Shown one piece after another: positions 24,342 through 38,242 of a DNA stretch of 40,033 nt (position 1 is its first letter; every line of letters starts with the position of its first letter). The position numbers and the translations under genes are program-made. The notes under the pieces are model-generated. The model made no database searches and was not told where the DNA came from. It saw only the letters and a list, made by a program, of their open reading frames with translations. Source of the stretch: a virus; UHGV virus genome UHGV-0235137; one strand, written 5' to 3'.

Positions 24342-25529
24342 ATGGCAGTAGGTGAAATTCAAATTAGTGCCTTGCCTCAAGCAGCCTTACCAATTGACCT
24401 TAGTGATATCTTCCATCTTAAGCAGGGTATTGAGGATAAGAGGTGTACTCTTGAGCAATTACTTGCTCCACACGCAAGCCTAAGAAATAACCCTCATGGT
24501 GTTACTAAGACACAAATTGGTTTAGATAATGTTATTAATGCTCTTCAGTTAGTTGCTGCAAATAACTTATCAGATATTGTTAATGTAGCTGAGGCAAGAG
24601 CAAATCTACAGATTATGTCTTCAGAAGAGGTTAATAACCTTGTCCAGCAACATATTCAGGACAAGAGTAACCCACACAATACAACTAAGGCACAGGTTGG
24701 TTTAAGTAATGTTCAGAACTGGACAACATCTAACCTGTATAACGAAGATGCAGATAAGTATGCTACAGCAAGAGCAGTAAATAACTTGTACAAGGCTGTT
24801 CAGGCTTCTTATCCAGTAGGTACTATCCATCTTTCTATGAACTCTGCAAACCCTTCTACATACTTAATTTGTGGAGGTACTTGGGAGTTAGTTTCAAAAG
24901 GTAGGGCATTGGTTGGCTATGACTCTGATACAAGGCCAGCAGGTTCTGTATTTGGTGCTTCAACTGTCACTTTGTCAGTTAATAATATGCCTCAACACTC
25001 ACACTCTGTGTCTCTCAGTGGTGGTGGTCACACTCATAATGCAACTGTTTCAATCTCAGCTTTTGACTATGGAACTAAGACTACCAACTCTTTTGACTAT
25101 GGAACAAAGACCACTAACACAACTGGTAACCACAATCACGTTGGTAGTGGGTCAACAAGTGCTGCTGGTGCTCACAACCACAGATTGACTTATGAAGCAG
25201 GTGGTGGTCTGTCGGAAAGACCTGCAATGGTTTGGTCTACAAGGAATGACCAATCGTGGTACTCAGCAGATGCTGTCTGCGAAGTCGCTGGTTCGCACAC
25301 CCACTCTTTTAGCGTTACCACTAACACAACTGGTAACCACAATCACACAGTGGGGATTGGTGCTCATAGCCATACAGTTGGTATTGGTTCACATACACAC
25401 AATGGTACTGTGACAGTTTCTTCTTCTGAGCATACACATAGTGGAAACACGAATAGTGTTGGTGGTGGACAAGCTTTCAACATTGAGCAGCCATCCTTCG
25501 TACTGTATGTATGGCAGAGAACAGCTTAA
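24342..25529 (+). CDS. tail fibre protein with C-terminal His-rich HxH repeat domain
   Basis: repeated SHSHS, GHTHN, GNHNH, AHNH, GSHTHS, AHSHT motifs; C-terminal end similar to the next gene. Confidence 0.7.
   Translation: MAVGEIQISALPQAALPIDLSDIFHLKQGIEDKRCTLEQLLAPHASLRNNPHGVTKTQIGLDNVINALQLVAANNLSDIVNVAEARANLQIMSSEEVNNLVQQHIQDKSNPHNTTKAQVGLSNVQNWTTSNLYNEDADKYATARAVNNLYKAVQASYPVGTIHLSMNSANPSTYLICGGTWELVSKGRALVGYDSDTRPAGSVFGASTVTLSVNNMPQHSHSVSLSGGGHTHNATVSISAFDYGTKTTNSFDYGTKTTNTTGNHNHVGSGSTSAAGAHNHRLTYEAGGGLSERPAMVWSTRNDQSWYSADAVCEVAGSHTHSFSVTTNTTGNHNHTVGIGAHSHTVGIGSHTHNGTVTVSSSEHTHSGNTNSVGGGQAFNIEQPSFVLYVWQRTA
25061..25120 (+). repeat. 30-bp tandem duplication inside the tail-fibre gene (encodes FDYGTKTTN twice)
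   Basis: ttttgactatggaactaagactaccaactc / ttttgactatggaacaaagaccactaacac. Confidence 0.8.
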
Positions 25530-25575
25530 TTTCTTTACAGGGGCTTTATAGCCCCTTTTAAGAGGATAATATATA

Positions 25576-27633
25576 ATGGCAGATTACAAATTGAGTGAAT
25601 TAAACTCAATCGACACAATCCGTTCAGATGACCTTCTTCATGTCAGAGTTAAAAAGAGACCTGAAATGCTGGGTGATGAAGACCGTCGAATGACCTATCA
25701 AGATTTCTTAGCATCTTTTAAGCTTGAGAGATTTGTTCAGATTGCTGGCAGCACTATGACGGGTGACTTAGGAATTGTCAAGTTACTTTATGGTGGTAAG
25801 GCAGTCTTTGACCCAACAGGTTCTTCTGAGATTACTATTGGGGATGTTTTAAAGACTTTTAAAATTAACGCAAATGGTCTTAAACTAACTATTGCAGATG
25901 CTTCAAGGTCGGCAACTGTTTACCATACTCTGAATAAACCAAGTCCTAATGAGCTTGGGATGAGAACTAATGAACAGAATGATACAAGGTATGCAAGGCT
26001 AAGCGTTGGTAATACATTTAAAGCTAAACAGATTATCACAGTAGATGGTGAAGCATTAGCACTTAAAAATACTTCTGATATGCCATCTTTATATATTAGA
26101 GGTAAAGATTCAGGAGATAGATTAAAGTGGTACGTTGGATTTAACACAGATAATAAACTTGGTTTATCTAATAGTGTTACTGGTACAACACTACTATTAG
26201 ATGATACCGGTATTAACTCAAATAAAAATCTAAATATCACTGGTCAGGTTAAACCCTCTGATTGGTCTAACTTAGATGCTAGATATTTTACTCAGACAGT
26301 AGCTAATCAGAGATTTGCACAGTTAGCTGGGAATAACACTTTTAGTGGCACTAATACGTTTAAAAAAGATGTTATCTTTAACTCAGATGTTCCGGTTGTT
26401 CTTAAGAACTTAACAGCTAATAGACCATTGTATATTCAGGGTAAGGATTACCAGAATACTAGTTTGTGGTTTGTTGGTAAGGGTGGAACTGGTACTGAGA
26501 TTAAATTTTATAACTATGTGACTGATACAGTTTTAGAGTTGTCTGAGACGGCTAGATTTAATAAAACTTTGAAGGTTACTGGACAGGTTCAACCGTCTGA
26601 TTGGGCTAACCTAGATGCTAGATACTATACAGGTTCAGCAGCAAATGCCAGATATATGTATGCGGAAAGAACTGGTGAAGGTGCTGATGAGGGTGCTATT
26701 GCTTGGAATGCTAAGACAGGAGTATATAATGTCAAGACGGGGGGAGCCACATCATCAAATCTTGTACTTCAGTTCTATCAGGGGTCGGGGTCTATCACAT
26801 CTACGCCATCTGCGCAGCTAAGATTTAAATGGGCGAATGGTGGTATGTGGTATAGGACATCAAGAGATGGTAATGGCTTTGAGAAAGGTTGGTCTATGGT
26901 GTACACAACTGCACAGAAGCCAACCCCTTCAGATATTGGTGCATACACTAAAGCAGAAACTGACCAGAAGATTGCACAGGCAATTAGTGACTCTACAGAC
27001 CTTAACAAAATCTATCCAGTAGGCATTGTAACGTGGTTTAACAGTAATGTTAACCCTAACACAGCGTTGCCTGGGTTAACTTGGACGTACCTGAACAATG
27101 GTGTTGGTAGAACTATCAGAATCGCAGCAGCAAACGGTTCAGATGTTGCTACAACTGGTGGTTCAGACTCTGTAACTTTAGCTGTTGGTAACTTACCATC
27201 ACACACTCACAGTTTCTCTGCTACCACTTCATCTTTTGATTATGGTACGAAGGGCACTAATAGTACTGGTGGACATACTCACTATGTAAGTGGTACAACA
27301 AGTGCTGCTGGTAACCATGCTCACCACTTAGGTCTGTTATTAGTTAACGGTGGTGATGCTTTGTACGGGTATACAACCATTGGTAACGGTCTCCCTAGAA
27401 CGCTTGACTGGCTTGATAGAAGAGATAACAAGTTCCCTAACACTAACACAACTGGTGACCATACACACACATGGTCTGGTACTGCAAGCGGTGCTGGTGA
27501 CCATTCCCACTCTGTAGGTATCGGTGCTCACAGCCACACAGTTAGTGGTAACACTGGTAGTACAGGTTCTGGTTCAGCATTTAGTGTTACTAACCAGTTC
27601 TATAAGCTAATGGCTTGGGTAAGAACTGCTTAA
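25576..27633 (+). CDS. tail fibre protein (long), internal ~105-aa duplication and C-terminal HxH domain paralogous to 24342-25529
   Basis: PSDW(S/A)NLDARY repeated; C-terminal SHTHSFS...GGHTHY...GDHTHT...GDHSHSVGIGAHSHTV. Confidence 0.7.
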   Translation: MADYKLSELNSIDTIRSDDLLHVRVKKRPEMLGDEDRRMTYQDFLASFKLERFVQIAGSTMTGDLGIVKLLYGGKAVFDPTGSSEITIGDVLKTFKINANGLKLTIADASRSATVYHTLNKPSPNELGMRTNEQNDTRYARLSVGNTFKAKQIITVDGEALALKNTSDMPSLYIRGKDSGDRLKWYVGFNTDNKLGLSNSVTGTTLLLDDTGINSNKNLNITGQVKPSDWSNLDARYFTQTVANQRFAQLAGNNTFSGTNTFKKDVIFNSDVPVVLKNLTANRPLYIQGKDYQNTSLWFVGKGGTGTEIKFYNYVTDTVLELSETARFNKTLKVTGQVQPSDWANLDARYYTGSAANARYMYAERTGEGADEGAIAWNAKTGVYNVKTGGATSSNLVLQFYQGSGSITSTPSAQLRFKWANGGMWYRTSRDGNGFEKGWSMVYTTAQKPTPSDIGAYTKAETDQKIAQAISDSTDLNKIYPVGIVTWFNSNVNPNTALPGLTWTYLNNGVGRTIRIAAANGSDVATTGGSDSVTLAVGNLPSHTHSFSATTSSFDYGTKGTNSTGGHTHYVSGTTSAAGNHAHHLGLLLVNGGDALYGYTTIGNGLPRTLDWLDRRDNKFPNTNTTGDHTHTWSGTASGAGDHSHSVGIGAHSHTVSGNTGSTGSGSAFSVTNQFYKLMAWVRTA

Positions 27634-32229: not shown

Positions 32230-33333
32230 TTACTCATAATCCCTAATAACTAGCCCAACAGGGAACTGTAAAGAACCCTTACGAGTCATCTTCTGGAACT
32301 GAACCGTTAGAGGCTTCCCGATAAACTCTTCAGGATGCTCAGCAAGATACTGTTTCTTCTCACGAGTAGTCTTCCATGAGACATCTACAAAGACGTTAGG
32401 AAGAGTCTCTACAACGAACTTGCCATGACCACGCTTATCAGTCTTTACACCAGTCACTTTAAACTCTTCAGTGTGCATCTTCTTGTGCTTAATCAAGAAG
32501 TATGAACGGTGACAACACTCATAGAAGGAGTCTTCAGAGATTGAACGGTACATTGCACCTTCAAACTTAGCCTCAACCCACTTATCATGAGCTTCATCAA
32601 ACTCTTCCCAAGAATTTACACGACGAGACTTAACAGGAACAACTTTACAGCCGTCTCTAAAGTCATTCAATGGTGAAGTCTCAATAATATCTCTACGCTC
32701 AGGCCATGTCTTAGTACTGTCACAGATATCGTACCAGTAAAACTTGAGCAAGTGTCTGTCAGAATTGTCTTCATTTTTAATCATAGAGACAATATCTTCT
32801 AAGTCCCACCCATGAGCATAAATCTCACCATCAAATTCATCAACATCTTTGTGGAGCCTTAACATTGCCATAATGTCAGGTATTAGTTCAGTAGGGATTT
32901 TGTAAACAGTATTTTCACGAGAGTATGCTGTGAATACACTGCCAATACTTAAGTGCCTTGAAATCCTACAACGGACACCATCAAGTTTCGGTTGAGCATC
33001 AGCAGGGAACTTCAGATACTTTGCATGGCTAACCTTTGCAGCATCATGAGCAAGCTGTACACCTACCTTTTCAGTATTCTGTGCAGACTCTTTTGTGTAA
33101 GCATAACCTTTACGGTCAACTTGCTTTTTATACTTAGCAGCAACTTCAAAGAGAGCTTGCTGCTCAGCGTTACGCTCATTCTTTTTACCGATGTTTTTAG
33201 GTTCTGCTGTATACTCTTCAAACATCATCTTGCCATTTTCTTTACCGTAGGTTGTAATAACTTTGTCACCTACAGCAACACATGACCAGACGTTAAAAGA
33301 GCCGTCTTTATTTTGTTTGTATAGAATTGTCAT
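32230..33333 (-). CDS. ATP-dependent DNA ligase
   Basis: adenylation motif I KLDGVR (PKLDGVRCR); size about 367 aa as in T7-type phage ligases. Confidence 0.9.
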   Translation of the reverse strand: MTILYKQNKDGSFNVWSCVAVGDKVITTYGKENGKMMFEEYTAEPKNIGKKNERNAEQQALFEVAAKYKKQVDRKGYAYTKESAQNTEKVGVQLAHDAAKVSHAKYLKFPADAQPKLDGVRCRISRHLSIGSVFTAYSRENTVYKIPTELIPDIMAMLRLHKDVDEFDGEIYAHGWDLEDIVSMIKNEDNSDRHLLKFYWYDICDSTKTWPERRDIIETSPLNDFRDGCKVVPVKSRRVNSWEEFDEAHDKWVEAKFEGAMYRSISEDSFYECCHRSYFLIKHKKMHTEEFKVTGVKTDKRGHGKFVVETLPNVFVDVSWKTTREKKQYLAEHPEEFIGKPLTVQFQKMTRKGSLQFPVGLVIRDYE

Positions 33334-33661: not shown

Positions 33662-33861
33662 TGCATATCCTTAATCTTACCTAAGAACCTTACACCACAA
33701 TTATTACACTCGTATATGTCTAAATTTGTGTTATCAGGTTTATGAAAACAGTTTGACCCACAACGACACCGGAATAGTTTACCATCAACACGGAGAATAA
33801 ATGTTTCAAGCTCACCCTCTTCTGTAAGGACGGCGTTCTTAAACTTATCTTCTACAGTCAT
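33658..33861 (-). CDS. small zinc-ribbon protein (hypothetical)
   Basis: CRCGSNC ... CNNCG cysteine pairs. Confidence 0.5.
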   Translation of the reverse strand: MTVEDKFKNAVLTEEGELETFILRVDGKLFRCRCGSNCFHKPDNTNLDIYECNNCGVRFLGKIKDMQ

Positions 33862-34064
33862 TTTCTCTTACCACCAATCTCTACGTCGATAACCTGAACA
33901 TCACCAGCAACATCAAACTTATGAATGATGCTTCCCACAGTGTAAGTCCAACCCTCGATTCGAACCAACTCACCTTCTCGTGGGACGATTGGATTACGTT
34001 GAGCTACGGTTGTAGTGGAGTGAACAACATCATAACAATAGATATAGTTTACTAGGACTTCCAT
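33858..34064 (-). CDS. hypothetical protein
   Basis: ORF-track 33858-34163 trimmed to the internal ATG at 34064, which has a GAGGT RBS and removes the overlap with the lipoprotein gene. Confidence 0.45.
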   Translation of the reverse strand: MEVLVNYIYCYDVVHSTTTVAQRNPIVPREGELVRIEGWTYTVGSIIHKFDVAGDVQVIDVEIGGKRK

Positions 34065-34074
34065 CGTGAAAACC

Positions 34075-34311
34075 TCACTCAATAACCGTAGTATGTGATT
34101 GACCATTTTTACCATATTTATAAGATGTTGTTGTTTGAGAGTTTGGACATCTGACAACAACAATATCTATGCTTACAGTATCTCCATATAGCTTATAGAC
34201 CTTGCAATCTTGCATCTCTGGTGGGAGGCTATAAGAAGCATTCTTATCTTCATAAGAAGGGTTACAACCAGTTAGAAAAATAACACCAAGTGCAATTATT
34301 ACTTTCCACAT
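34075..34311 (-). CDS. small lipoprotein (signal peptide with lipobox LTGC)
   Basis: N-terminus MWKVIIALGVIFLTGC: positively charged start, hydrophobic core, L-T-G-C lipobox. Confidence 0.6.
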   Translation of the reverse strand: MWKVIIALGVIFLTGCNPSYEDKNASYSLPPEMQDCKVYKLYGDTVSIDIVVVRCPNSQTTTSYKYGKNGQSHTTVIE

Positions 34312-34326
34312 AACACATCTCCTGTT

Positions 34327-34482
34327 TTATTGTTCACGATGTTCTACTTCTCTGTATGTACGCCGGTAGTTTATGATGAGAGGTGCTAATTCGTTGCTTT
34401 TAACATTAGAACGTAACAATTGCCAATCAAAACCTTTGGCGACTCTGCCATATAAATTGAAAAACTTTGCTTTGCGTTTCAT
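34327..34482 (-). CDS. unlisted small ORF (51 aa), candidate
   Basis: hand translation MKRKAKFFNLYGRVAKGFDWQLLRSNVKSNELAPLIINYRRTYREVEHREQ; GGAG RBS 9 nt upstream; below ORF-track length cutoff. Confidence 0.35.
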   Translation of the reverse strand: MKRKAKFFNLYGRVAKGFDWQLLRSNVKSNELAPLIINYRRTYREVEHREQ

Positions 34483-34500
34483 TTTTGGTGTCTCCAATAC

Positions 34501-34713
34501 TCAAAAGTTAATATTAATACGTTCACCCTTAAGGACTCCTGTACGGTCTCTTGCAATCTTACCGTCAACAATGAGGATATGCGCAGACTTTAAAGATTCA
34601 CTATTAAAACCTTTTACGAACTTACTAGGCATCACCACAATAAGCATCTCTTGAATCAACTCTGGAGTATAGCAATTGTCGTGAAGTTGCTGAATAACGT
34701 CTGCAAGTGTCAT
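34501..34713 (-). CDS. hypothetical protein
   Basis: ORF-track 34501-34728 trimmed to the ATG at 34713, preceded by GGAG and overlapping the upstream stop in ATGA. Confidence 0.5.
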   Translation of the reverse strand: MTLADVIQQLHDNCYTPELIQEMLIVVMPSKFVKGFNSESLKSAHILIVDGKIARDRTGVLKGERININF

Positions 34714-34919
34714 TTTTGATGTCTCCAATATTCAATGTCAATAAGTTCTTGTGCAATGCTTTTCAGATTACCTTTCAAGAAAACCTTCTCAGAACCTGAA
34801 AGAGATGAATTGTCAATTAACCTGTTCATTCTCTCAAACAACTTCTGTTTACGATTCTTGATAGTTTCCTTTGAAGCACCTTTCATCATTGCTGCATGGG
34901 TTCTTCCACGGTGGCTCAT
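34710..34919 (-). CDS. hypothetical small basic protein
   Basis: 69-aa ORF. Confidence 0.5.
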   Translation of the reverse strand: MSHRGRTHAAMMKGASKETIKNRKQKLFERMNRLIDNSSLSGSEKVFLKGNLKSIAQELIDIEYWRHQK

Positions 34920-34970
34920 AAGCCCTCCTATATAAGATATTGTATAAGGTACTCTTCCATGAGCACCTTG

Positions 34971-35483
34971 TCAACTTAGTTTTGCAAACTCTCCGTGGAG
35001 TTTCATAGCAGCTTCACAGTAAGCTTTATGGGCTTCTTCTTCTGTTATGTATGTCCCTATATGCACTGTCTTGCCATTATGGTTAACCTGTGCTTTCCAC
35101 TTACCAGATTTGCTTCTACTTGTACCTTTCAAGTTTTTTGATGTTCTAGGTTGTCCCCTATTAGACATGTTCTGTTCTTTTGTGGCCTCTCTAAGATTGT
35201 TCCAAGCATTATTCAAACCATCTCCATCTTTGTGGTCAATGTGTTTATCAGGCCACTTACCTGTCATCCAGAACCAAGCAATTCGGTGATTACCTGTTCT
35301 GTATCCTAGAATCTGTGTGTGCATATACACACCAGACCTTGTGCGCTTGATTGCTCCGGCTTTGCTTCCAATAACCACTCTACTACTATGTGGAGGTCTT
35401 CCAATCCATGTTAAGACCCCTGTTTCGGGGTCATAGTCTAACCAAGATTTTAACTGTTCATGTGTGAATCCACAATCCCGCAT
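34971..35483 (-). CDS. HNH homing endonuclease with AP2-like DNA-binding domain
   Basis: HIDHKDGDGLNNAWNNLREAT HNH motif; C-terminal GKWKAQV...HIGTY...EEAHKAY AP2-like segment; directly downstream of the polymerase gene. Confidence 0.8.
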   Translation of the reverse strand: MRDCGFTHEQLKSWLDYDPETGVLTWIGRPPHSSRVVIGSKAGAIKRTRSGVYMHTQILGYRTGNHRIAWFWMTGKWPDKHIDHKDGDGLNNAWNNLREATKEQNMSNRGQPRTSKNLKGTSRSKSGKWKAQVNHNGKTVHIGTYITEEEAHKAYCEAAMKLHGEFAKLS

Positions 35484-38182
35484 CAGTGTACCTCATACCA
35501 CGATTTACCAACCTTACCAGTACCTGTAACAAGCGTTTCTTTCTTAAGACCTAAGTTCTTAGAAGCTTGTCCATAATACCAGTCAGTAACTGCTTTCACA
35601 TCTGCCGTCATACTTTCTGGACATTCCCAACTCGTCTCATCGTGATATGCGCAGAGCAAACGAGCACCAATAGCTGGTTGACGACCATTCAACTTCATCA
35701 AACCTTCGTCAATCATACGACGACAAGCAAGGTTAATTGCCTCATTTTGAATCTGAGCCTCTGAACCCATCAAAAGATAGTTCAACAGTTTGTGTGGAGA
35801 TTTACACCACAACCAAGCTCCAGCAACCTTTACAAAACCACCTTTAGAGATTGCAGCAGTCTTACCAAACACCTCTTCAAGTGCCTTCTTAGTTGCTTTG
35901 TAGTCAGCTTCCAAGTCATCTAGCAGCTTCTTAATCTTAGGCAAACGGATAAAGTAAGTCTGCTTAGTCAGTGCACCTTCCTGAGTAGTTGCAGCTTTAA
36001 TCGTCTTAGCAAACTTCTCATCACCTGCACCGAACAGCAGTGCATAGATACCATTCTTAGCTTTCTTACGACCCTTGCTAATCTCATGGAGAAGGTTCTC
36101 ATCCTGAGTAGCTCGACAAGTCAAGATATCCTGCTCATCATTCAAGCTAAAGTAAATACTGTTCAGTGTGTGTGCATCAGTCCCTGAATAGACAACGTAA
36201 AGGTCGTTCTCAGAGTCATAGCGAAGGTACTTATCAATCTCTGGGTTGAGGTACTCATCAAAGTGTTTGCAGTAATAGCGTCCATCTTCTTGACGAATAA
36301 ACTCAATCTCTTCTTTACCTTGCGTTACCGCTTTGGTGAAGTCTTTGTCACCCATAAAGTTACAAAGAAGAACTAGCTGGGCTGAGTTCATGTCTACAGA
36401 GACAACGTTAGTACCTTCTTCACAAATCCACACTGCCCTCATTGGTTCCCCATAGACAGCAGCACCAGACGGTACGTTTACAATACCATATTGTGTCATA
36501 CGTCCAGTTGAAGTACCAAACACCATTGCACCAGCACTAAGGCGACCATCAGGACGAATCTGGTTCAACCAACCTTTTTCATCATCCTTTGAGTTCTCAA
36601 TAGTTCTGCGTCGGTGCATCAAAGTATAGTACTTAGCAATTTTCTGTCCAAGCTCACCTTCAATCGTATCATAAGATGACTCAGTAAGTTTTGGTGAAGT
36701 ACGGATTAAGCAAGGTTCAAGCAAATCTGTGTACTTCTTAACAGACCAGTTATGCTCAATGTACTGGACACCTTCATGTTCAACATAACTCAAACCACAC
36801 CGTTCAACCATCTCCTGCCATTTAGGATGCTTTGTAATCATCTTTTTGTTGTCTTTGAAGCGACAAACCTTAACAGGACGACCATCAGAGTCTTTCTTAT
36901 AGTTCCAGTCATCTGGAATCCAACCAACTGATTTCAAGTAGTCTTTAACAACTGCTACCTGAGTCATACGAGAAACTTCGAACTCAATTGGTGTATATGG
37001 TGCATCAATCAAACCTGTGTAGCGACTTGACTCAAGTTCAAAGTGGTTAACAACATGACTGTTATAGTACTTCACAGTTTTAACTGTTTTTACTGGCTTC
37101 CAGTCTTTGCATTTCTTACCAATCTTTGCGTTCAACTCATTGCAAATTGCACGAGCATCCTTCATTGCTACAAAGCCTTCCTTGTACTCTTCACCAGTTA
37201 CAGAGTTGGTTGGTGTATAGCAATTCCGCTTTTCAATGTTAAAAATCTTGGTAGTTGGTTTACCAAATGGCTTGATTTCATATGTCTGCATCTCACCATT
37301 ACGTACCTGCTGACGATACTTTGTCTTAGGGTACTTAGTAATTCTCTTCAGTCCATCTGCATGACCGAATGCTTCAACATACTCATTCCAAGCTTTTGCA
37401 AATTCTTCTCCAGTAACTTTACCTTTGGTCTTAATAGTTGGTGGAAGGTGTGGTTCAACTTCTGAAGCAAGCTCATTAGTCAACTTGTCAAGTTCCTTTA
37501 CATGGAACTCCATAAGTTCTTTATCAGCTTTCCAACCATTAATAGCTTGTTGACTCATCCAGAAAGATGTTTCTTTAGCTCGCATGTAGGTTTCATAAGT
37601 ATCTACGCCACACTTCTTCAGCTTAAGATATTCATTATCCAGTGCACGTTTAGTTTTGGCGTTAATACGGATATCTTCCACAACACGAGTGAATATTTCT
37701 GCATTCCACACACCCCAATGTTCAATCTCTGGTTTACGGACACCAACACGAGCACCCCATGCTGCCAAGCCATGAGCACCCTTATAGCCCTTTGGAGTTG
37801 GTCTATCCATCCACTGAACACGAGACTGGATAAGAGAATCCTGAAAGAAATTACTCCACGGCTTACACTTTGGATTATCAAAGTTCCACAAATCAGGTGC
37901 AATGTGATTGAAAACCCACCAGTCATATCCCAGACCATTATGGATGCAAAGTCGTTTTGCCTTTAACGCAAACTCAACACCTTCACGCAAGCCACCCTTA
38001 ATGTACTTGGTATACTTGTGACCGAGGATAGGCTCATCTGTAAAGACCCATACAGGTGGCTCTTCATCGTCAGATTTATAGTCTGCGAAAGCCATTACGT
38101 GCACTTTAGTGAACTCAAGGAGTAAACCATCAGTTTCTGTATCACCAACTAAATGTAAGTTTTTAAAATCTACGTTTTCCAT
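35483..38182 (-). CDS. DNA polymerase, family A (Pol I / T7 gp5-like) with 3'-5' exonuclease domain
   Basis: exo motif DTETDG; motif A-like SVDMNSAQL; motif B-like KKAKNGIYALLFGAG; motif C YHDE; start set at the ATG (38182) preceded by AGGGAG. Confidence 0.9.
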   Translation of the reverse strand: MENVDFKNLHLVGDTETDGLLLEFTKVHVMAFADYKSDDEEPPVWVFTDEPILGHKYTKYIKGGLREGVEFALKAKRLCIHNGLGYDWWVFNHIAPDLWNFDNPKCKPWSNFFQDSLIQSRVQWMDRPTPKGYKGAHGLAAWGARVGVRKPEIEHWGVWNAEIFTRVVEDIRINAKTKRALDNEYLKLKKCGVDTYETYMRAKETSFWMSQQAINGWKADKELMEFHVKELDKLTNELASEVEPHLPPTIKTKGKVTGEEFAKAWNEYVEAFGHADGLKRITKYPKTKYRQQVRNGEMQTYEIKPFGKPTTKIFNIEKRNCYTPTNSVTGEEYKEGFVAMKDARAICNELNAKIGKKCKDWKPVKTVKTVKYYNSHVVNHFELESSRYTGLIDAPYTPIEFEVSRMTQVAVVKDYLKSVGWIPDDWNYKKDSDGRPVKVCRFKDNKKMITKHPKWQEMVERCGLSYVEHEGVQYIEHNWSVKKYTDLLEPCLIRTSPKLTESSYDTIEGELGQKIAKYYTLMHRRRTIENSKDDEKGWLNQIRPDGRLSAGAMVFGTSTGRMTQYGIVNVPSGAAVYGEPMRAVWICEEGTNVVSVDMNSAQLVLLCNFMGDKDFTKAVTQGKEEIEFIRQEDGRYYCKHFDEYLNPEIDKYLRYDSENDLYVVYSGTDAHTLNSIYFSLNDEQDILTCRATQDENLLHEISKGRKKAKNGIYALLFGAGDEKFAKTIKAATTQEGALTKQTYFIRLPKIKKLLDDLEADYKATKKALEEVFGKTAAISKGGFVKVAGAWLWCKSPHKLLNYLLMGSEAQIQNEAINLACRRMIDEGLMKLNGRQPAIGARLLCAYHDETSWECPESMTADVKAVTDWYYGQASKNLGLKKETLVTGTGKVGKSWYEVH

Positions 38183-38242
38183 TTTTACTCCCTCTAAAAT
38201 CATTAACCTCATACATTACTGCAAAAAATTATAAAAAGCAAG

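What the first reader, a model, noticed from the sequence alone, without database searches (positions are those of the whole stretch)
34480..34735. Duplicated 25-bp translation-initiation cassette
The - strand starts at 34482 and 34713 are each preceded by almost the same sequence (plus strand catttttgGtgtctccaataCtcaa versus catttttgAtgtctccaataTtcaa), although the encoded proteins are unrelated. This suggests a shared RBS/regulatory module or a recombination junction.
Basis: seen in the sequence. Interest (0 to 1): 0.35.

Follow-up and report, generated by a model that had tools for sequence, protein, structure and literature searches.

The report
Duplicated gene-junction scar in phage
Two neighbouring small genes of a Felix O1-like phage start behind the same 25-base ribosome-binding stretch because the second copy is a leftover of the first gene's tail, left by past recombination: a clear but ordinary example of how phages shuffle genes at gene boundaries.

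Summary
On the - strand, TTGAATATTGGAGACATCAAAAATG (34735-34711) and TTGAGTATTGGAGACACCAAAAATG (34504-34480) match at 23 of 25 positions. No shuffle of the window gave two such matches, and neither the window nor a full relative genome holds a third copy.

The window is a Felixounavirus. The repeats lie in the variable small-gene block between DNA polymerase/HNH and DNA ligase.

- **Copy A** is coding. It is the last eight codons (IEYWRHQK*) of a 69-aa gene, carries the GGAG Shine-Dalgarno 9 nt before the ATG of a 70-aa gene, and has an ATGA stop/start overlap.
- **Copy B** is non-coding. It supplies the TGA stop of the 70-aa gene and the RBS of a 51-aa gene.

An Erwinia phage homologue keeps ...ELIDIEY, so the left part of the cassette is native 69-aa coding sequence. 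Copy B is therefore most likely a relic of a 69-aa gene tail fused to a truncated 70-aa gene.

Across about 27 relatives, A and B occur independently. They join two upstream genes to at least five different downstream genes. B drifts, whereas A varies mostly at synonymous sites.

I found no RNA structure, no Rfam match and no regulon-like copy number. This is a recombination scar reused as an ordinary RBS, and its interest is low.

The parts
34711..34735 (-). Cassette copy A, TTGAATATTGGAGACATCAAAAATG. It is the last codons of the 69-aa gene (I-E-Y-W-R-H-Q-K, with the stop TGA at 34712-34710 overlapping the ATG). It also holds the Shine-Dalgarno GGAG (34726-34723), a 9-nt A-rich spacer and the ATG (34713-34711) of the 70-aa gene.
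   Evidence: It is nearly invariant in relatives, with changes mostly at synonymous sites (GAA/GAG, CAT/CAC) plus Y/F and one H/Y.
34480..34504 (-). Cassette copy B, TTGAGTATTGGAGACACCAAAAATG. It is non-coding apart from the TGA stop (34503-34501) that it gives the 70-aa gene. GGAG lies at 34495-34492 and the ATG of the 51-aa gene at 34482-34480. I read it as a relic of a 69-aa-gene tail.
   Evidence: It is 25/25 identical to the copy-A allele of another phage (L046) although both flanks are unrelated. It is variable in relatives.
34710..34919 (-). 69-aa gene (MSHRGRTH...ELIDIEYWRHQK*), function unknown. Its tail is copy A.
   Evidence: PHROG 5180 at E 2e-46, no Pfam family. The Erwinia phage M7 homologue is 58% identical and conserved up to ELIDIEY.
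34501..34713 (-). 70-aa gene (MTLADVIQQLHDNCYTPELIQEM...KGERININF*), function unknown. It is flanked by the two cassette copies, which start 231 nt apart.
   Evidence: PHROG 4230 at E 1e-41. 25 homologous loci were found. It has a paralogue (MTLSEIE..., 44% identity) in relatives, and the homology ends at KGER[IV]NI.
34327..34482 (-). 51-aa gene (MKRKAKFFNLYGRV...REVEHREQ*), function unknown. It is translated from copy B.
   Evidence: PHROG 2381 at E 6.5e-17. The wV8 homologue aligns only from residue 6, so the N-terminus is specific to this junction.
34920..34970 (-). Conserved untranslated leader (…TGGAAGAGTACCTTATACAATATCTTATATAGGAGGGCTT) between the HNH gene and the first small gene. It is another shared junction of this block.
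   Evidence: In different relatives it precedes the 69-aa gene, the 70-aa gene or the 70-aa paralogue.

Best explanation
The window comes from a Felix O1-like myovirus (Felixounavirus). Between DNA polymerase/HNH endonuclease and DNA ligase lies a block of small genes of unknown function, all on the - strand, that is reshuffled gene by gene among relatives.

The 25-nt cassette is the 3' tail of the 69-aa gene. It encodes IEYWRHQK-stop and, in the same bases, carries the ribosome-binding site (GGAG, 9-nt A-rich spacer, ATG) for whatever gene follows, with a stop/start overlap (ATGA).

Copy B is a second copy of that tail. It has lost its gene and is fused to a 70-aa-family gene truncated just after ...GERINI-N. 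At the joint (...ATTAACTT|TTGAGTATTGG...) the tail is read out of frame, so its TGA terminates the 70-aa protein. Its GGAG/ATG now starts the 51-aa gene.

The joint lies in a patch where both genes natively carry ATTGAY hexamers (E-x-I-D-I) that match at 13-15 of 18 bases. This makes short-homology or illegitimate recombination, for example deletion of a 69-aa gene from a [70]-[69]-cassette-[X] arrangement, the likely origin. The present order [69]-A-[70]-B-[51] can then be assembled by ordinary homologous recombination between lineages within shared genes.

Today both copies most likely act only as ordinary RBSs. Copy A would give translational coupling through ATGA. Copy B would give initiation, or re-initiation 19 nt after the stop.

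- **Shown:** the repeat, its coding versus non-coding status, the SD geometry, and its position at mosaic breakpoints with interchangeable partners.
- **Inferred:** the direction A to B, the recombination mechanism, and the present RBS function.
For: **Identity and location.**
- The window is a Felixounavirus. The region is 91-92% identical to Salmonella and Escherichia Felix O1-like phages, and the window holds a 19-tRNA cluster.
- The repeat is statistically non-random and has exactly two copies. A complete 88-kb genome of a relative 95% identical over this locus has no further copy.

**Coding status and direction of descent.**
- Copy A is coding with an ATGA overlap. Copy B follows a TGA in another frame.
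- The Erwinia phage M7 homologue of the 69-aa protein keeps ...ELIDIEY and then diverges. ATTGAGTAT, the left part of the cassette, is therefore ancestral 69-aa coding sequence, and B derives from A.

**The joint.**
- Left of the joint, copy B's flank matches the native tail of other 70-aa alleles (B3 type, ...GGTGAACGTATTAGCATTAACTT|ATCATTT...).
- Right of the joint, it matches the 69-aa tail.

**Interchangeable partners.**
- The window's B is 25/25 identical to the copy-A allele of L046, with unrelated flanks (53% and 52%, the background level).
- L027 ([70']-[69]-A-MTYEEA) and L043/SUSP1 ([70]-B-MT[FY]EEA) share the downstream gene (84%) but not the upstream one (55%).
- Downstream partners of A are the 70-aa gene, MSSREEE, MSSKEEE and MTYEEA. 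Downstream partners of B are the 51-aa gene and MT[FY]EEA.
- All four states exist among 27 genomes: A only 9, B only 7, both 7, neither 4.

**Breakpoints and sequence drift.**
- Homology breakpoints with relatives fall at query positions 186-193 and 389-395, which are the two cassettes. They also fall at every other gene boundary of the block.
- Copy B drifts in relatives (GGAG to GGGG, GGGA, GGAA or GGTA, with a 1-nt deletion), while copy A changes mostly at synonymous sites.

**Precedent.** Short repeated gene tails flanking an inserted gene, and conserved boundary sequences, are described in mycobacteriophages and lambdoid phages (PMC3029335).
Against: - The exact joint cannot be fixed. 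Relative to an in-register crossover in the ATTGAY patch, copy B carries 7 extra bases, so one hexamer shift plus a 1-nt insertion, or a direct illegitimate join, has to be assumed.
- The order of events (deletion of a 69-aa gene versus insertion of a 70-aa gene plus tail module) is not resolved.
- No phage with a 70-aa gene of the MTLADVI type directly followed by a 69-aa gene was seen. Only the paralogue MTLSEIE precedes the 69-aa gene.
- RBS use and expression of the three genes are inferred from sequence only.
- A-B identity is highest in this window (23/25, against 19-21 elsewhere). That could hint at selection or conversion, although L035 has the same B without any A.
Confidence: 0.75

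Rival explanations
1. Active portable recombination cassette. The 25-mer is a preferred substrate at which Ounavirinae currently exchange, delete or circularise small genes, comparable to PeSL-mediated shuffling in T4-type phages. The 231-nt unit (70-aa gene plus cassette) would behave as a mobile module.
For: - The cassette joins two upstream genes to at least five downstream genes, and all presence/absence combinations exist.
- Direct repeats flank the 70-aa gene.
- PeSL repeats do mediate such exchanges and form mini-circles (PMC2839356).
Against: - Every gene boundary in the block is a breakpoint, most of them without any shared repeat.
- There are only two copies per genome.
- The precise deletion product [69]-cassette-[51] was not found among 50,697 phage records.
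- The 70-aa gene always sits in the same genomic context.
- B copies diverge from A within genomes, at 19-21 of 25, so there is no sign of ongoing exchange.
Confidence: 0.13
2. Shared post-transcriptional operator. The identical leader binds a phage or host protein or a small RNA that co-regulates translation of the 70-aa and 51-aa genes. This would be of the RegA-operator or SAS type.
For: - The identity covers positions outside the Shine-Dalgarno core.
- The position is immediately 5' of the start codon, as with start-associated sequences in Cluster K mycobacteriophages (PMC3203893).
Against: - Conservation outside the SD is explained by coding in copy A.
- Copy B is not conserved among relatives that keep the same two genes.
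- There are two copies only, against 11-19 for SAS (PMC3203893).
- There is no structure (z = 0.2 and 1.2) and no Rfam match.
- The downstream genes differ between phages.
Confidence: 0.06
3. Independent convergence on an efficient RBS, or chance resemblance.
For: Both copies contain GGAG plus an A-rich spacer, features generally favoured at bacterial starts.
Against: - No shuffle out of 100 gave two matches.
- The window's B is 25/25 identical to a copy-A allele elsewhere, including 9 bases 5' of the SD that have no RBS role.
- No other gene start in 128 kb of sequence resembles it, even at 4-6 mismatches.
Confidence: 0.02

Closest known systems
Repeated gene-tail at an insertion/deletion joint in Cluster I mycobacteriophages (Island3 genes 67/68 versus Brujita), and the 'short conserved boundary sequence' model of phage mosaicism (PMC3029335 and the references cited there)
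   Same: - A short stretch from the 3' end of one gene recurs at the 3' end of the next gene, so direct repeats flank a small gene that is present or absent among relatives.
- The stretch sits at mosaic breakpoints between otherwise unrelated sequence.
- Recombination at or near gene boundaries keeps the genes functional.
   Different: - The repeat here is 25 nt rather than about 50 bp.
- The second copy is read out of frame and is essentially non-coding (it supplies a stop codon and an RBS), rather than encoding the same C-terminal peptide.
- The phage is a virulent enterobacterial myovirus.
PeSL (promoter-early stem-loop) mobile regulatory cassettes of T4-type phages (PMC2839356, PMC4122927)
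   Same: - Short repeated intergenic cassettes in hyperplastic regions of small ORFs.
- They end in a Shine-Dalgarno sequence and a start codon.
- They are located at insertion, deletion and replacement joints.
   Different: - There is no sigma-70 promoter inside the repeat.
- There is no stem-loop terminator.
- There are two copies rather than dozens.
- One copy is coding sequence.
- There is no evidence of circle formation.
Start-associated sequences (SAS/ESAS) of Cluster K mycobacteriophages (PMC3203893)
   Same: An asymmetric conserved motif containing the SD core lies a few bases upstream of ATG starts of non-structural genes from different families.
   Different: - SAS is 13 bp with 11-19 copies per genome and is conserved across subclusters.
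- Here there are two copies, both explained by common descent.
- The non-coding copy is not conserved.

Membership tests
Conserved boundary sequence / recombination scar at a phage mosaic joint | The same short sequence lies between flanks that are unrelated in different genomes. | tested here: met
   Upstream/cassette/downstream identities were 53/100/52 % (window B versus L046 A), 55/80/84 % (L027 A versus L043 B), 81/100/50 % (L027 A versus L018 A) and 90/92/54 % (window B versus SUSP1 B).
Conserved boundary sequence / recombination scar at a phage mosaic joint | Homology breakpoints between relatives coincide with the sequence. | tested here: met
   BLAST hit ends fall at query positions 186-193 and 389-395. 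HSP ends pile up at 34470-34510 and 34710, but also at every other gene boundary of the block.
Conserved boundary sequence / recombination scar at a phage mosaic joint | Recombination actually takes place within the short sequence, so it is a substrate and not only a product. | not testable with these tools
   This needs crosses or deep sequencing. The precise repeat-to-repeat deletion was not found in 50,697 records.
PeSL mobile regulatory cassette (T4-type phages) | A sigma-70-like early promoter lies within the repeat. | tested here: not met
   The only promoter-like match is TTGACA-18-AAAAAT at copy A, and its -35 element lies outside the repeat. There is none at copy B. The region has 10 promoter-like sites against 6.6 +/- 2.5 in shuffles.
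PeSL mobile regulatory cassette (T4-type phages) | A stable stem-loop (terminator/attenuator). | tested here: not met
   The 81-nt folds around both copies give -10.2 and -7.2 kcal/mol, with z = 0.20 and 1.24 against shuffles. No terminator-like site lies at either copy.
PeSL mobile regulatory cassette (T4-type phages) | Many copies concentrated in hyperplastic regions. | tested here: not met
   There are two copies in the 40-kb window. The 88-kb relative has one substitution-only match plus one copy with an indel.
Start-associated sequence (SAS) type translation-initiation motif | Multi-copy motif (11-19 per genome) directly upstream of start codons of many genes. | tested here: not met
   There are two copies only. 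The SAS definition is taken from PMC3203893.
Start-associated sequence (SAS) type translation-initiation motif | The motif is conserved at orthologous gene starts across related phages beyond what the SD requires. | tested here: not met
   Copy B varies at the same junction: GTATTGGAGATACCAAA, GTATTGGGGATACCAAA, GTATTGGTATACCAAA, GTATTGGGAACACCAAA and others.
Ordinary Shine-Dalgarno ribosome-binding site | A purine-rich match to the anti-SD lies 5-10 nt upstream of an ATG that opens a conserved ORF. | tested here: met
   GGAG lies 9 nt before the ATG in both copies. Both ORFs are conserved PHROG families. Actual ribosome use was not tested.

The most novel reading that the evidence does not exclude
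The cassette, the tail of the 69-aa gene together with its RBS, could be a working portable junction of Ounavirinae. In that reading, small accessory genes carrying this tail are exchanged, deleted or excised as circles by short-homology recombination between cassette copies in co-infecting phages. That would be a minimal, promoter-less counterpart of the T4-type PeSL system. The 231-nt unit (70-aa gene plus cassette) in this window would be one such mobile unit.
Probability: 0.1. Interest if true: 0.5.

Novelty: new member of a known kind. Interest (0 to 1): 0.2.

Why it matters
This is a clean, base-resolved example of how a virulent phage rebuilds its accessory-gene block. A gene's coding tail that doubles as the next gene's RBS survives loss of its own gene. 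It is then reused, out of frame, as stop codon plus RBS for new neighbours. The case illustrates mosaicism at gene boundaries and the overprinting of coding and translational signals.

It also has a practical use. Annotators of Felixounavirus genomes should start these ORFs at the ATG, not at the in-frame TTG inside the cassette. It does not reveal a new regulatory or mobile system.

Tried and rejected
- **More copies.** I searched the window with the 25-mer at up to 3 mismatches and with the 11-mer core at 1 mismatch. I then searched the window and a complete relative genome with the 25-mer at up to 6 mismatches, a 20-mer at up to 4 and a 16-mer at up to 2. The only extra match is one weak, unrelated 20-mer site in the relative (4 mismatches).
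- **Other phages.** An IMG/VR scan with the exact 18-mer gave 17 Ounavirinae contigs, all in this same locus, plus 8 unrelated single hits that look like chance.
- **Deletion product.** A synthetic query for repeat-to-repeat deletion, [69]-cassette-[51], was not found. All best hits are two pieces about 481 nt apart.
- **RNA structure or riboswitch.** The folds are no better than shuffles, and there were no Rfam hits at E <= 1.
- **Promoter or terminator within the cassette.** Not supported.
- **Protein function.** There is no Pfam family, and the PHROG families are all of unknown function.
- **Extended homology.** I considered that the two tails are homologous over about 45 nt with a 7-nt indel. 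I rejected this as the primary reading because GERI[DNS]I is native to all 70-aa-family alleles and ELIDIEY is native to the 69-aa family. The resemblance there is better seen as microhomology. MAFFT did not place the gap on its own, so the joint was read by eye from that output.
- **Gene conversion keeping A and B alike.** Rejected, because B differs more from A in other genomes, and L035 has the window's B with no A.

Full report
**1. Observation**

The quoted sequences are present at 34480-34504 and 34711-34735. On the - strand they read as follows:
- copy A: TTGAATATTGGAGACATCAAAAATG (34735-34711)
- copy B: TTGAGTATTGGAGACACCAAAAATG (34504-34480)

They match at 23 of 25 positions, and each ends in an ATG. 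With up to 3 mismatches these are the only two sites in the 40-kb window. None of 100 dinucleotide-preserving shuffles produced two matches. The 11-nt core at 1 mismatch also finds only these two sites. Similarity decays within a few bases on either side. The two downstream proteins (70 aa and 51 aa) show no similarity.

**2. Context**

The window is a Felix O1-like myovirus. The region is 91-92% identical to many Salmonella and Escherichia Felixounavirus genomes, and the window carries a cluster of 19 tRNA genes.

All genes in this region are on the - strand. In order they are:
- DNA polymerase (35483-38212)
- an HNH-AP2 homing endonuclease (34971-35483; Pfam HNH_3 and AP2)
- a short leader
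- the 69-aa gene (34710-34919)
- the 70-aa gene (34501-34713)
- the 51-aa gene (34327-34482)
- a putative lipoprotein (34075-34311) and further small ORFs
- DNA ligase (32230-33333)

The three small genes belong to PHROGs 5180, 4230 and 2381, all of unknown function, and have no Pfam family.

**3. Anatomy of the two copies**

In copy A the cassette is coding. ATT GAA TAT TGG AGA CAT CAA AAA TGA gives I-E-Y-W-R-H-Q-K-stop of the 69-aa protein. The stop overlaps the ATG of the 70-aa gene (ATGA).

In copy B the same bases follow ...ATT AAC TTT and are read one frame off. Bases 2-4 (TGA, 34503-34501) therefore terminate the 70-aa protein, and the remaining bases are untranslated.

In both copies GGAG lies 9 nt before the ATG and is followed by an A-rich spacer, which is a normal Shine-Dalgarno geometry. 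The ORF listing extends both ORFs to an in-frame TTG inside the cassette. That TTG overlaps the GGAG, and relatives annotate the ATG.

**4. Comparative evidence**

A BLAST of 34320-34925 against 50,697 phage records found 272 Ounavirinae records. Partial matches begin or end at query positions 186-193 and 389-395, which are the two cassettes.

I fetched nine annotated loci, 17 Ounavirinae contigs that contain the exact 18-mer and 25 loci that encode the 70-aa protein.

Copy A always follows the 69-aa gene, but the gene behind it differs:
- the 70/72-aa gene (most Felixounavirus)
- MSSREEE, 83 aa (Silverhawkium, L018)
- MSSKEEE, 85 aa (Moogle)
- MTYEEAIEAMK, 67 aa (L027)

The 70-aa gene has three kinds of 3' junction:
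- **B1:** TGA-GTATTGG..ACCAAA(A)ATG, leading to the 51-aa gene or to MT[FY]EEA
- **B2:** ...GERIDILELL* with an ATGA overlap
- **B3:** ...DLSF*-TAAGGAAAAG..ATG, leading to a 68-aa gene

Pairwise identities for upstream 178 nt / cassette / downstream 200 nt (about 50-56% is background):

| Comparison | Upstream | Cassette | Downstream |
|---|---|---|---|
| window B vs L046 A | 53 | 100 | 52 |
| L027 A vs L043 B | 55 | 80 | 84 |
| L027 A vs L018 A | 81 | 100 | 50 |
| window B vs SUSP1 B | 90 | 92 | 54 |

The cassette is therefore a junction shared by two different upstream genes and at least five downstream genes.

Among 27 genomes, A alone occurs in 9, B alone in 7, both in 7 and neither in 4. 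Many more INPHARED records hit both places with a copy-B query.

**5. Direction and origin**

The 69-aa protein has a 58%-identical homologue in Erwinia phage M7 (Kolesnikvirus). That homologue is conserved through ...ELIDIEY and then diverges. ATTGAGTAT, the left third of the cassette, is therefore ancestral 69-aa coding sequence. Its presence in non-coding copy B means that B descends from a 69-aa gene tail, not the reverse.

One search shows the two sides of the joint. Left of the joint, the window's B flank (GGTGAACGTATTAATATTAACTT) matches the native tail of B3-type 70-aa alleles (GGTGAACGTATTAGCATTAACTT|ATCATTTTAAGG). Right of the joint it switches to the 69-aa tail (TTGAGTATTGGAGACA...).

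Homology between the 70-aa gene and its paralogue MTLSEIE (44% identity) also ends at KGER[IV]NI. This confirms that the last residues of this family are specific to each junction.

Both genes natively carry ATTGAY hexamers here (GAACGTATTGATATTGAC against GAACTTATTGACATTGAG, 13-15 of 18 identical). This short homology may have guided the exchange. An in-register crossover would leave 7 fewer bases than observed, so one hexamer of slippage plus a 1-nt insertion, or a plain illegitimate join, must be assumed. This step is inference.

L027 ([70']-[69]-A-MTYEEA) and L043/SUSP1 ([70]-B-MT[FY]EEA) look like before and after states of a 69-aa gene loss. The window's order [69]-A-[70]-B-[51] can be assembled from an A-bearing and a B-bearing lineage by homologous recombination inside the shared 70-aa gene. 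L035 has the window's exact B with no A.

**6. Is it more than a scar plus RBS?**

- **Copy number.** There are two copies in the window. The complete 88-kb genome of a relative 95% identical over this locus has no further copies.
- **Conservation.** Copy A varies mostly at synonymous positions (GAA/GAG, CAT/CAC), plus Y/F and one H/Y. Copy B drifts freely, with GGAG becoming GGGG, GGGA, GGAA or GGTA and a 1-nt deletion in most lineages. That is unlike an operator under sequence-specific selection.
- **RNA structure.** The folds around both copies are no more stable than shuffles (z = 0.20 and 1.24). There are no Rfam hits at E <= 1.
- **Promoter and terminator.** The one promoter-like match uses a TTGACA outside the repeat and occurs at copy A only. 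No terminator-like site lies at either copy.
- **Recombination hot spot.** HSP ends pile up at every gene boundary of the block (33330, 33700, 33850, 34060, 34320, 34470-34510, 34710, 34910-34920, 34970, 35480). The cassettes are two of about ten mosaic joints and are not special.
- **Ongoing exchange.** The precise repeat-to-repeat deletion, [69]-cassette-[51], was not found in 50,697 records. Within-genome A-B identity is 19-23 of 25, with no sign of homogenisation.

**7. Comparison with known systems**

The closest precedent is the Island3/Brujita case in Cluster I mycobacteriophages. There, about 50 bp of one gene's 3' end recurs at the end of an inserted neighbouring gene. The authors relate this to the model of short conserved boundary sequences for phage mosaicism (PMC3029335).

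PeSL cassettes of T4-type phages also end in an SD plus start codon and sit at indel joints. They are defined, however, by a sigma-70 promoter, a stem-loop and high copy number (PMC2839356), none of which is met here.

Start-associated sequences of Cluster K mycobacteriophages are 13-bp motifs present in 11-19 copies and conserved at orthologous starts (PMC3203893). Those criteria are not met either.

A comparative Felixounavirus paper that I checked does not discuss this block or any recombination in it (PMC8300805).

**8. Verdict**

The finding is real and fully explicable. It is an RBS-bearing relic of the 69-aa gene's tail, duplicated by past recombination at a mosaic gene boundary and now serving as stop plus RBS for new neighbours. 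It is a new instance of a known kind of feature. Confidence is about 0.75 and interest about 0.2. The residual novel reading, an actively used portable junction, has a probability of about 0.1.

Noticed in passing
window 33858-33895 (- strand; tail of the 68-aa gene ending ...VIDVEIGGKRK*): A second conserved junction, GTTATCGACGTAGAGATTGGTGGTAAGAGAAAATGA. The tail of the 68-aa gene with an ATGA overlap precedes at least four different genes in relatives: MTVEDKF, DNA ligase MTILYKQ, MKTEPV and MKPKQ. The principle is the same as for the cassette, but this junction is single-copy per genome.
   Followed up: partly
window 34920-34970 (- strand): A conserved ~45-nt leader, TGGAAGAGTACCTTATACAATATCTTATATAGGAGG, lies after the HNH gene. 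In different phages it precedes the 69-aa gene, the 70-aa gene or its paralogue. It may carry a promoter, but the simple scan did not flag one.
   Followed up: partly
window 34971-35483 (- strand) and the equivalent position in L001-L009 and L035-L059: The HNH-AP2 homing endonuclease directly abuts the polymerase stop. Relatives carry different alleles or N-termini (MRDCGF, MVRR, MDLIL/MDFIL, MITQERL, MQDYGF) or no endonuclease at all (wV8). All alleles share the tail ...KLHG[ED]FAKLS.
   Followed up: no
L001 2273-2827 and L003 2667-3221 (relatives DE7 and fBSPA4): In these relatives the DNA polymerase is annotated as a separate 184-aa C-terminal fragment starting at TTG. This suggests an insertion (endonuclease or intron) that splits the gene. 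The window's polymerase is one 909-aa ORF.
   Followed up: no
window 94-4621: A cluster of 19 tRNA genes. It includes two tRNA-Lys(UUU) copies (811-886 and 2431-2506) that are 92% identical over 85 nt including flanks.
   Followed up: no
window 25060-27468: Internal direct repeats of 30-94 nt (76-100% identity) lie within what is probably a tail-fibre gene or genes, for example 26221-26314 with 26560-26653, and 25089-25169 with 27232-27312.
   Followed up: no
GenBank GU169904.1 (Staphylococcus phage SA1) 94606-95208; also two 'Campylobacter' phage records: Records labelled as Staphylococcus or Campylobacter phages contain this Felixounavirus locus at about 91% identity. These are probably chimeric or contaminated assemblies, or mislabelled hosts.
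   Followed up: no
window 34497 and 34728 (- strand): An in-frame TTG inside each cassette copy makes mechanical ORF callers extend both genes by five codons (METPK-/METSK-). This is a likely source of inconsistent start annotation in this phage group.
   Followed up: partly
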